Shown here piece by piece: positions 6,973 to 64,000 of a stretch of 64,000 nt of DNA. The notes under the pieces are model-generated. The model was not told the DNA's origin. It saw nothing but the letters and a program-made list of their open reading frames with translations, and did not search any database. Position 1 is the first letter of the stretch. Each line of letters starts with the position of its first letter. The DNA comes from Candidatus Heimdallarchaeota archaeon. Its GTDB lineage: Archaea; Asgardarchaeota; Heimdallarchaeia; Heimdallarchaeales; Heimdallarchaeaceae. The translations under genes and the position numbers were made by a program. The stretch spans positions 88,977 through 152,976 of the forward strand of contig JABCTC010000001.1 in assembly GCA_018238545.1 (NCBI GenBank). Direction: 5' to 3'.

Positions 6973-8466
6973 ATGAAAAAAGGCTGGAAAATCGTTTTAG
7001 GGATTTCATTAGGATTAATTTTTATTGTCTCTTCGTTATTAGTAGTTCAAATGATTTGAATAACCACGGTAGATTATGAATGGTTGGAAGGAGAACCTGA
7101 AGACTATGGATTCAAATGGAATAAAATAGCTGCTACACGTCTTGTTGCCGAACAGATGCCCTATCTATCTTAGAAGTGTGCTTATCTTACGCACGTCATG
7201 AAACTTGGTCAAACTTGCCAGAGGCGGTCTAACCGTCGTTTAAGTGGGTCCCCTCACGTGCGTTGAGGGGAAGAATCATGAGGATCATGATTGGGAAAGG
7301 AATGAAGGGAGTGCGCATTTACTCCGACAACATTCCTGTCATTGCGCTTCGTGCTGTATGGTTCAAGCTTTATTAACTGAGGGATAAGTGTTCAAACACT
7401 TGCGAACCATAAACATGACGAGTTTTCGCCAAGCACTACCCATATATCAGCACTTTCCTATATAAACTCGTAGAAAAATGGGAGAAAATTAGAGAGGTAT
7501 TAACCATCATCACCTCAACATGCAATGATGAAAGCTCAGAGACTTCTGGCAAGATTGAATAAGATTTTAATCAGCTGTTGCTTACGGCTCAATGATGGGA
7601 CGTACTATGGAGCTAATCATATACATTCAGCATCAAAAAGTTTCATATCGGCGTTGATAGGTATAGCAATAAGAGAAGGTTACTTAACGGATTTGGATCA
7701 AAAGATACAAGATTACTTCCCAGAATATGTCGATTTAGCTCTAGAATCAATCAAGCAAGATATCACCATTCGTCACTTACTACAGATGAAAGCTGGATTT
7801 AATTTCAATGATTCAGCTGATGAATGGTATGATTATGCTTACAGTGCAAATTGGGTTAACTATGCTTTATCCTTACCTTTAACACATGATCCAGGAGAAA
7901 ATTGGCATTATTGTACACCTCAATCAAACTTGCTTTCTGTAATATTGACAAGAGCAACTAACATGAGCACAAAAGCCTTTGCTGACCAATTTCTTTTCGG
8001 TCCAATGAATATATCAATAAATTACTGGAGACAAGATCCTCAAGGTTACTACACTGGTGGGCATGAGATGTACTTTACTCCGAGGGATTTAGCACAATTT
8101 GGTCTACTTTATCTTAATAATGGTTCATTAAACGGAGAACAGATTGTTCCTGCTGAATGGGTGATAGAGTCTACTCAAGATTACGCTGTTGGTTTGGTAG
8201 AAACTGATGTTGCAATGACTGGTGGATTGGAATCTGATTTCTATAAAGGCACTGGCTATGGTTACCAATGGTGGTTGAAAGAAATGAGAGGGTACCGATC
8301 TTATTCGGCTCGTGGTCTTGGTGGTCAGTTTGTTTTCTGTTTTCCAGAACTAGATATGGTTGTTGTTACAACAGCTTCTGGAGATATTGTCAATGCCTAT
8401 CCTGGACAATATGAAGGAATAATTGACTTAATTGAATACAATATTTTGGGATCGATAATAGATTAA
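6973..8466 (+). pseudogene. Serine hydrolase (beta-lactamase/AmpC family), disrupted by an in-frame TGA, a small duplication and a ~400-bp insertion
   Basis: 5' part MKKGWKIVLG...QMI*ITTVDYEWLEGEPEDYG...MPYL then frameshifted RSVLILR; 3' part resumes at ~7590 with SASK (SxxK), YCT, YGYQWW and ARGLGGQ. Confidence 0.8.
7193..7435 (-). ncRNA. Putative structured ncRNA within a mobile-element remnant (omegaRNA-like hypothesis; strand inferred from a TATA box)
   Basis: GC-enriched; hairpins cccctca/tgagggg, aatcatga/tcatgatt, ggaatg..ggagt/actcc..cattcc, aagtgtt/aacactt, atggttc/gaaccat; closing stem cttgg..aaact/agttt..ccaag; TTTATATA on the minus strand at ~7459-7466. Confidence 0.55.
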
Positions 8467-29035: not shown

Positions 29036-29079
29036 CTCTTCTCCTTAATTTTTTGCTACAAATTTTTGGTGCAAATAAC

Positions 29080-29225
29080 TTATGACATGAATTCTATCTG
29101 AATTCTTTAGAAGTACCTAGGTACATCATGGGGACGCCACGAACCCTCCTACCCCGCCCACATCTTTTTGTAAAGATGCTTACGGTTCGCTTTTGGTTTT
29201 TAAGATGTAGACTCGAGGATCACCA
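29080..29225 (-). ncRNA. Conserved structured ncRNA candidate, copy 1 (strand inferred)
   Basis: About 80% identical to 48546-48692 with compensatory changes in two stems; minus-strand TTTATATA at ~29274-29281. Confidence 0.7.
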
Positions 29226-29336
29226 TAAAGTTGGTGCATATCTACAATCCTCACTGGATAATCTGTTTAACCCTATATAAATACCAAGAAAAATATACAA
29301 ACAACTTATAAGTAACAACCAAACCTTTGCACAGCA

Positions 29337-48480: not shown

Positions 48481-48545
48481 GAGATATTCTCTTTATCAGT
48501 ATTTTTTTGTTATTTTTTATTTTTAATTATTTTAACTGCATATCA

Positions 48546-48692
48546 TTATGACATGAATTTTGTACAAATTCTTTAGAAGTGCCTGAGCACATCATGGGGA
48601 CGCCATTTACCCTCCTACACCTCCCACAGCTTCTTGCAAAGATGCTTACGGTTCGCTTTGAGGTTTTTGTTGGATTTAGCTCCGAGGATCAC
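48546..48692 (-). ncRNA. Conserved structured ncRNA candidate, copy 2 (strand inferred)
   Basis: Homolog of 29080-29225 with covarying stems; minus-strand TTTAAATA at ~48731-48738. Confidence 0.7.
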
Positions 48693-48756
48693 TATGGGTC
48701 TTATAATTCTAAGTCAATGTGTTTCATTCGTATTTAAAAGAAGAAGGATGAAGAAA

Positions 48757-48963
48757 ATGCAAGATGTTCAAGTATTGAATTCTTCTAAGGTTACAGCCTC
48801 TGTACCTAGTACCTTTACCTCAGCTAAGTCTTCAGCTCCTAAAGAAGCTATTAAAATTGATGAATATGCTGTTGCATATTGCCCTACTTGTGGGAAAAGT
48901 TTTACAAAAAAATACACATTTTGCCCTAACTGTGGTTCATGTAAAATAAAAGGTATGTTGTAA
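48757..48963 (+). CDS. Small zinc-ribbon protein
   Basis: CPTCG...FCPNCG; start ATG 48748 or 48757 (the longer TTG start overlaps the ncRNA). Confidence 0.7.
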   Translation: MQDVQVLNSSKVTASVPSTFTSAKSSAPKEAIKIDEYAVAYCPTCGKSFTKKYTFCPNCGSCKIKGML

Positions 48964-63662: not shown

Positions 63663-63940
63663 TATGCTATGTACAGTGAATTTCTTAAATAATAATGTTT
63701 TGGCATTAGAATGACTTTTAACGTCTATTTCTTACATAACTCAATAATATACTTCACTACTCAGAGTAGTTATTGTCTTGTTTCTTCTTGGAGGAGTAGC
63801 TTTTATAATTTGGGTAATTTTTTATTTTAACTATTATTTTATTAATATGCTTTTGTCTTTTTGTCTTCTTAGTGTGGAAATCTAGAAAAATTTTAGTGAT
63901 AGTACGGGTGTTTTTATAGTGAACTCTAGGTCAACGAAGG

Positions 63941-64000
63941 ATGGCAAAGGTACTGCGTGCAGAGCGTATAGAAGTGGAGTATCATCCAGCACTGAGCAGA
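63941..64000 (+). mobile_element. Probable start of an IS200/IS605-family TnpB gene (runs off the window)
   Basis: MAKVLRAERIEVEYHPALSR resembles TnpB N-termini that precede 'LCxxSKNLYN'; GC rises from ~63890; only 20 codons visible. Confidence 0.45.

What the first reader, a model, noticed from the sequence alone, without database searches (positions are those of the whole stretch)
29080..29225. Dispersed, covarying ~150-190 nt ncRNA family (second copy at 48546-48692), possibly stand-alone omegaRNA-like guides
Seen: two intergenic copies 19.5 kb apart, about 80% identical by eye, in unrelated contexts (after guaB; after rubredoxin). Substitutions keep the pairing: GAATTC..GAATTC versus GAATTT..AAATTC, and GTAC..GTAC versus GTGC..GCAC. 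Blocks such as CATCATGGGGACGCCA, ACCCTCCTAC, AAAGATGCTTACGGTTCGCTTT and GAGGATCAC are invariant. Each copy has a minus-strand TATA box just upstream, and no transposase ORF or terminal inverted repeat. Inference: the minus strand reads GGGGUAGGAGGG...CCCCA and ends ...UUCAUGUCAUAA before conservation decays. From memory this resembles the right-end scaffold of IS605/IS1341-type TnpB elements (copy 1 translates GVGGFVASP, like TnpB C-termini; copy 2 has a stop there). They may therefore be independently transcribed guide RNAs acting in trans for TnpB or a nuclease-dead derivative, or a new Asgard ncRNA class.
Basis: partly seen in the sequence, partly recalled or inferred. Interest (0 to 1): 0.8.

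Follow-up and report, generated by a model that had tools for sequence, protein, structure and literature searches.

The report
Gene-less TnpB guide-RNA mini-transposon
The two flagged stretches are copies of a roughly 230-base, protein-less jumping element in an Asgard archaeon that keeps its own promoter-like box and the guide-RNA scaffold of a TnpB nuclease encoded elsewhere in the genome; this kind of element is already described, although the enzyme that moves this one was not found.

Summary
It is a 226-235 bp ORF-less element (copy 1: 29082-29307, minus strand; copy 2 is 5'-truncated). At least 8 copies lie in this Heimdallarchaeaceae genome, and I collected 52 full copies from 12 genomes in two genera plus two metagenome contigs. 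Orthologous empty sites show clean insertion at TTAT, sharing one AT. The element has a TATA box at a fixed 24-nt spacing and a covarying ~172-nt RNA. Its 3' ~110 nt are homologous to the right ends of the genome's ~20 solo, catalytically intact tnpB elements, and a -6..-2 pseudoknot covaries between minis and tnpB ends, in the ISDra2 register. The guide is just the insertion flank; no trans targets exceed chance. Best reading: a selfish standalone omegaRNA ('ghost'/PATE-like) that borrows TnpB to defend its own site. They look IS607-like, but no cognate transposase was found: no Y1 TnpA in 24 genus genomes, and the IS607 TnpA present belongs to another family. Expression is untested. This scan already found this element type several times in other Asgard genomes.

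The parts
29082..29307 (-). Copy 1 of the ORF-less mini-element (226 bp including one shared AT); complete
   Evidence: ends from the multi-copy alignment and from empty sites in G016 and G010
29308..29311 (-). Target motif / putative TAM TTAT (host DNA; AT shared with the right end)
   Evidence: TTAT precedes the left end in 34 of 39 copies; present in the empty sites
29282..29307 (-). Left end; imperfect inverted repeat of the right end (degenerate in this copy; its first 10 nt match the right flank at 9/10)
29274..29281 (-). TATA box TTTATATA, 23 nt before the RNA 5' hairpin here (24 nt in most copies)
   Evidence: spacer sequence varies while its length is fixed
29203..29250 (-). P1: 5' hairpin with inner helix, specific to the mini; not found elsewhere in the genome
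   Evidence: 5 pairs with two-sided changes; BLAST finds it only in minis
29154..29185 (-). P2/P2b stem, homologous to the tnpB 3' coding region
29130..29146 (-). P3 stem; its loop (29135-29139, UGGCG) is the 5' strand of the pseudoknot
29089..29127 (-). P4 and P5 hairpins; P5 is also the right-end inverted repeat arm
29082..29087 (-). Scaffold 3' end UGUCAU: pseudoknot 3' strand (-6..-2) and transposon end motif TCAT
   Evidence: covaries with the P3 loop across 102 distinct mini and tnpB ends
29066..29081 (-). Putative guide = host flank of the insertion site
   Evidence: differs at each site; follows TTAT in the empty allele; no other target beyond chance
48548..48700 (-). Copy 2: right end and scaffold intact from the 3' strand of P1 onward; left end and 5' strand of P1 not recognisable
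   Evidence: empty site in G021 and G016, and a different mini variant at the same site in G010
48532..48547 (-). Putative guide of copy 2 (host flank)
63843..64000 (+). Left end, promoter and first 20 codons of a solo tnpB element of the cognate family; cut by the contig end

Best explanation
It is a non-autonomous mini-transposon derived from the solo-tnpB (IS1341-like) element family of Heimdallarchaeaceae, with the tnpB ORF replaced by a short 5' hairpin. SHOWN: it inserts as a unit after TTAT, shares one AT and adds no other duplication; it has amplified recently in some lineages; it keeps a TnpB-type scaffold with the 3' pseudoknot; its 3' flank is different at each site; intact cognate TnpBs are in the same genomes. 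INFERRED: the TATA box drives a ~172-nt scaffold plus read-through guide; TnpB made by full elements loads this RNA in trans; after the mini is excised, the RNP cuts the restored TTAT+guide junction and repair from a filled sister copy puts the mini back, as shown for IS605 and IS607 elements. The mini therefore parasitises both a recombinase and the nuclease. INFERRED, weaker: movement goes through a circle whose joined ends form an inverted repeat around an AT core, recombined by a serine recombinase supplied in trans.
For: Copy number and sharp ends. Empty sites at both window loci. Copies 98-100% identical within G016 and within G009/G007 at unrelated sites. Covariation: 97.3% of cells paired, 16 pairs with two-sided changes, 0/500 shuffles reach this and slid controls pair 35-47%; on a tree 107 of 156 changes keep pairing, 15 of them two-sided; G-U 174 versus A-C 12 fixes the RNA on the minus strand. 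Model hits on tnpB right ends. Pseudoknot pairing 97% versus 77% shuffled, with types UGGCG/UGUCA in minis and UGAUG/CAUCA, UGGUU/AAUCA, UGGUG/CACCA in tnpB elements; same -6..-2 register as ISDra2 (PMC10097598). Same TTAT/TCAT ends as the tnpB elements. All 12 genomes from which full minis were collected hold at least 3 TnpB matches. RuvC D-E-D intact. A hybrid mini with a tnpB-type right end exists (L084). Precedent: Meers et al., PMC10691335, Fanzor ghost loci.
Against: No expression data. No TnpB with the mini's own end sequence was found in this genome (the only full element seen with the same pseudoknot type is in G043), so loading by the resident TnpBs is assumed. No cognate transposase was found. 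Copies are related, so covariation counts overstate independent events. Several copies are decaying (P3 mismatches in copy 1; a nested insertion in G012).
Confidence: 0.8

Rival explanations
1. Passive MITE: the element moves with borrowed transposase, but its RNA no longer works with TnpB; the structure is inherited from the parent or kept for DNA-level reasons.
For: No RNA evidence; mini pseudoknot and P4/P5 sequences differ from the resident TnpB ends; 49 of 156 inferred changes break a pair.
Against: The mini-specific P1 hairpin covaries although it has no counterpart in the parent; G-U bias on one strand only; TATA spacing is fixed; the pseudoknot is kept in 42 of 44 minis at 5/5 pairs.
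Confidence: 0.12
2. Domesticated trans-acting guides used by the host for regulation or defence, with active TnpB or a nuclease-dead derivative (TldR-like).
For: Own promoter; a few insertions are shared by several species (G007, G011, G012).
Against: Guides are plain flanks and hit TTAT-adjacent sites no better than random 16-mers (best prefix 6-9 nt, control mostly 7-9); the shared insertion is disrupted by a nested element in G012; sites are empty in close relatives; TnpBs are catalytically intact. Viral targets were not searched.
Confidence: 0.05
3. A host ncRNA class unrelated to TnpB.
For: No Rfam hit; mini-specific 5' hairpin; a possible kink-turn around P3 noted by other first readers (not tested).
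Against: Homology and pseudoknot covariation with tnpB right ends; transposon ends and empty sites; not found in two complete genomes of the same family.
Confidence: 0.02

Closest known systems
Standalone omegaRNAs of OMEGA systems (Altae-Tran et al. 2021, as summarised in PMC10691335)
   Same: Mobilised, effector-less omegaRNA loci in the same genome as effector loci; guide from flanking DNA
   Different: Trans activity was shown there and is only inferred here; this one is an Asgard TnpB type with a separate 5' hairpin and TATA promoter
PATE-like gene-less elements of IS200/IS605 in Geobacillus stearothermophilus (Meers et al., 10.1101/2023.03.14.532601)
   Same: No ORF, keeps ends and often an omegaRNA, needs TnpB in trans; insertion 3' of a short motif
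   Different: No left-end hairpin; ends are inverted repeats of each other; no Y1 TnpA in 24 genus genomes
Fanzor 'ghost' Spu-1 loci (PMC10432273)
   Same: IR-bounded, ORF-less, omegaRNA overlapping the right IR, IRs similar to but distinct from the nuclease loci, no cognate transposase found between the IRs
   Different: Eukaryotic Fanzor1, ~550 nt, activity of ghost RNA tested; here archaeal TnpB, ~230 bp, untested
IS607-family elements (PMC6188088; 10.1101/2023.11.20.567912)
   Same: 2-bp shared core, no target duplication, imperfect IR near the ends, TAM extending upstream of the core; the nearest transposase-linked TnpB seen (45% identity) follows an IS607 TnpA
   Different: Core is AT, not GG; IRs reach the termini; no TnpA gene is linked to this family in the genus
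ISDra2 TnpB omegaRNA (PMC10097598)
   Same: Pseudoknot between nucleotides -6..-2 and a stem loop; guide directly after the transposon end; T-rich TAM
   Different: Here the pseudoknot partner is ~55 nt upstream rather than ~100; RNA has its own promoter instead of overlapping tnpB mRNA

Membership tests
Standalone omegaRNA / ghost element | No protein gene between the element ends | tested here: met
Standalone omegaRNA / ghost element | Mobilised: dispersed copies, sharp ends, empty orthologous sites | tested here: met
Standalone omegaRNA / ghost element | Scaffold homologous to a nuclease-linked omegaRNA, with the 3' pseudoknot | tested here: met
Standalone omegaRNA / ghost element | Variable guide taken from flanking DNA next to a shared TAM | tested here: met
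Standalone omegaRNA / ghost element | Compatible intact effector elsewhere in the genome | tested here: met
   ~20 solo TnpBs with the same TTAT/TCAT ends and D-E-D triad; compatibility itself is inferred
Standalone omegaRNA / ghost element | RNA is expressed | not testable with these tools
   no RNA holder listed
Standalone omegaRNA / ghost element | Guides the effector in trans | not testable with these tools
   needs an RNP assay
PATE / IS200-IS605 (Y1) | Subterminal hairpin at both ends | tested here: not met
   right end has one (P5); the left end carries only one arm
PATE / IS200-IS605 (Y1) | Y1 TnpA available in the genome | tested here: not met
   0 of 24 genus genomes, 72-92% complete
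PATE / IS200-IS605 (Y1) | Insertion 3' of a 4-5 nt motif without duplication | tested here: met
   cannot be told apart from a shared 2-bp core
IS607 | Identical dinucleotide at both ends and in the target, no further duplication | tested here: met
   AT; known members mostly use GG
IS607 | Imperfect inverted repeat near the ends | tested here: met
IS607 | Short direct-repeat motifs in the ends | tested here: inconclusive
   clear in the tnpB elements; only TGTA-like repeats in the mini
IS607 | Cognate serine TnpA | tested here: not met
   every IS607 TnpA locus examined in the genus belongs to the 600-650 aa TnpB family with CCGT/GCGT ends
IS630/Tc1-type MITE | TA target-site duplication | tested here: not met
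   empty site reads TTATAAGTT, not TTAAGTT
IS630/Tc1-type MITE | DDE_3 transposase in the genome | tested here: not met
   (own genome only)
TldR-type RNA-guided regulators | Nuclease-dead TnpB | tested here: not met
TldR-type RNA-guided regulators | Fixed guide with a host target | tested here: not met
Any Rfam family | Match at gathering score | tested here: not met

The most novel reading that the evidence does not exclude
The mini and its parent tnpB family are moved without any transposon-encoded transposase: their joined ends form an attachment-site-like inverted repeat around AT, and a host-fixed solo serine recombinase (238-250 aa, catalytic motif intact, syntenic, in most genomes of the genus) or TnpB-induced repair does the job. 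That would be an OMEGA family running on a domesticated host enzyme.
Probability: 0.12. Interest if true: 0.75.

Novelty: new member of a known kind. Interest (0 to 1): 0.33.

Why it matters
As a kind it is known. Its value is as a clean natural example: a compact, self-promoted TnpB omegaRNA whose 5' end, pseudoknot, TAM (TTAT) and guide boundary are defined by about 50 natural variants, ready for a direct trans-guiding test with an uncharacterised Asgard TnpB that has no solved relative by sequence. It also raises one open question: hundreds of TTAT/TCAT elements with covarying inverted ends are spreading in a genus where no Y1 transposase and no linked serine transposase was found. Two independent gene-less guide elements lie in this one window, which suggests that such parasites arise readily.

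Tried and rejected
RNA runs: no RNA holder listed. Contigs of four DNA runs laid on both copies showed no joint skipping either copy; contigs drop rare variants, so this says nothing on excision. Search for a full-length parent with the mini's own ends: none in this genome, in genus pattern hits or in 7 metagenome hits; the 315-bp 'intermediate' in G012 is a nested unrelated element. Transposase hunt: Y1 none; IS630 none; IS110 none; Cas1 only a 107-aa fragment with no tnpB nearby; two IS4-like DDE genes sit on separate contigs with no link to these elements; seven distant TnpB representatives had no annotated transposase neighbour, one with a faint HTH gene. TA-duplication model, suggested by A at +1 in 49 of 52 copies, rejected by the empty site. 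Trans-target search in the host genome negative; viral targets not searched. The sigma-70 promoter scan does not apply to archaea. PDB sequence search found no relative. A kink-turn around P3 was considered but not tested.

Full report
Observation. Both stretches are present and 120 of 149 columns are identical. The window is the last 64 kb of contig C43 of a 3.6-Mb, 92% complete genome. Relatives found with one of its TnpB proteins are named Candidatus Heimdallarchaeota / Heimdallarchaeaceae. Rfam gives nothing.

It is a mobile element. BLAST and nhmmer find at least 8 right-end copies plus fragments in this genome. A DNA search matches 17 of 23 same-genus genomes, some only through the shared tnpB core, and none of 16 genomes of other families. 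A covariance model finds many more full copies in two genomes of a second genus and none in two complete genomes of a third. Aligned copies start after TTAT (34 of 39) and stop after TCAT. Both window sites are empty in relatives: G016 and G010 join the two flanks of copy 1 across a single AT, and G021 and G016 lack copy 2. This rules out a TA duplication. Copies at unrelated sites are 98-100% identical within G016 and within G009/G007, which points to recent spread of the mini as a unit. Copy 1 spans 29082-29307; copy 2 has lost a recognisable left end.

Anatomy, minus strand. Left end; TATA box; a spacer of variable sequence but 24 nt long in 31 of 36 copies; then a ~172-nt RNA with P1 (48-nt hairpin found only in minis), P2/P2b, P3, P4, P5 and a 3' tail. 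On 37 distinct copies 97.3% of cells pair, 16 pairs show two-sided changes, no shuffle reaches this, and slid controls fall to 35-47%. These copies are related, so I also counted on a tree: 107 of 156 changes keep pairing, 15 are two-sided. G-U pairs outnumber A-C 174 to 12, so the minus strand is the RNA.

Link to TnpB. The genome has 36 TnpB-domain matches. About 20 belong to a 419-aa solo family whose last codons and 3' end resemble the mini core and which also ends in TCAT and starts after TTAT. A model built from minis alone hits these right ends at E 1e-16 to 4e-8 and did not hit the loci of other TnpB families included. The P3 loop pairs with nucleotides -6..-2. The sequence of this pairing differs between minis and several tnpB subfamilies, yet pairing is kept (97% versus 77% when partners are shuffled, 102 distinct ends). 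ISDra2 omegaRNA forms its pseudoknot with the same -6..-2 nucleotides (PMC10097598). The TnpBs keep the RuvC D, E and D residues and pass the NCBIfam guided_TnpB cut-off. All 12 genomes from which I collected full minis carry at least three such TnpB matches. One hybrid mini carries a tnpB-type right end, at the same site as window copy 2.

Guides. The bases after TCAT differ at each site and are simply the host flank. Against 66,924 TTAT sites in the genome the eight guides match no better than random controls. Their natural target is the empty allele. This fits the published model in which TnpB cuts the donor joint and repair restores the element, and in which gene-less elements rely on TnpB in trans (10.1101/2023.03.14.532601; PMC10691335). 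Fanzor ghost loci are the closest architectural match: IR-bounded, ORF-less, with a working omegaRNA and no transposase found (PMC10432273).

How it moves is unresolved. Left and right ends are imperfect inverted repeats (16/19 in L060), and in the tnpB elements the two ends change together between subfamilies. The left end has no hairpin, and no Y1 TnpA was found in 24 genus genomes. A shared dinucleotide without duplication plus imperfect IRs fits IS607 (PMC6188088), and the nearest transposase-linked TnpB I found (45% identical, another family) follows an IS607 TnpA. But each IS607 TnpA locus I examined in this genus belongs to a different element with CCGT/GCGT ends, and G009 and G007, which show recent mini bursts, have none above the cut-off. 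These are incomplete assemblies, so an autonomous copy may be missing. Solo serine recombinases with an intact catalytic motif sit at fixed loci in most genomes of the genus; I have no evidence that they act on these ends. My estimate for the mobiliser: serine recombinase of some source 60%, Y1 missed in binning 15%, other 25%.

Unexplained. The base after the right end is A in 49 of 52 copies, against 22% after genomic TTAT, and equals the first base of the left end. In a few copies the start of the left end resembles the copy's own flank (11/11 in L250, 9/10 in window copy 1); the mean shared prefix is 1.97 versus 1.58 on permutation (p 0.0009, copies not independent). This could reflect a recombination core longer than AT, or repair of a TnpB cut that overwrote the left end. 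It is inference only.

Verdict. A well-supported new member of a known kind: a gene-less, probably self-transcribed TnpB omegaRNA mini-transposon. Not a host ncRNA class and not a regulator. Expression and trans guiding are untested. Earlier notes of this scan describe the same type in several other Asgard genomes; they are leads, not evidence. Interest 0.33, carried mainly by the missing transposase and the ready test system.

Noticed in passing
window 7189-7587, minus strand: A second, unrelated ORF-less mini-element of about 400 bp (CCGT ... GCGT ends, own TATA at 7459-7466). Its left end resembles the genome's autonomous IS607 elements and its last 85 nt match the 3' end of the 600-650 aa TnpB family. 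About a dozen full or contig-cut copies at 92-99% identity.
   Followed up: partly
L064:1623-1940 (G012:C81): A ~318-bp relative of that second mini is nested inside a copy of the mini studied here, inserted at CCGT in the P2 stem.
   Followed up: partly
window 63843-64000: Left end, promoter and first 20 codons of a solo tnpB element, cut by the contig end.
   Followed up: yes
L035-L037 (G000 C6, C88, C26) and L170-L184: Solo serine recombinases of 238-250 aa without the IS607 N-terminal HTH, two or three per genome, at conserved loci across the genus; function unknown.
   Followed up: partly
L060 and L118 (same genome, G016): A mini and a full tnpB element have nearly the same right flank but different left flanks.
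   Followed up: no
L114-L144: In the solo tnpB elements the left and right end repeats change sequence together between subfamilies, and several insertions sit on start codons (TTAT followed by G).
   Followed up: partly
L074 (G001:C15), L084, L089, L092, L093: Variant minis: tnpB-type right end (L074, L084), tnpB-like P2 with the mini right end (L092, L093), and one lacking P1 (L089).
   Followed up: partly
window 48700-48963: The short ORF after copy 2 looks like the 3' remnant of a gene that is longer in relatives; its 5' part and the mini's left end appear to have been lost together.
   Followed up: partly
G000 C36:20601-20924 (L113): 107-aa Cas1-like fragment with no tnpB or other cas gene seen nearby.
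   Followed up: partly
G000 C116 and C118 (L321, L322): Two IS4-like DDE transposase genes; C116 also carries a RadC-like ORF and may be a contaminant contig.
   Followed up: no
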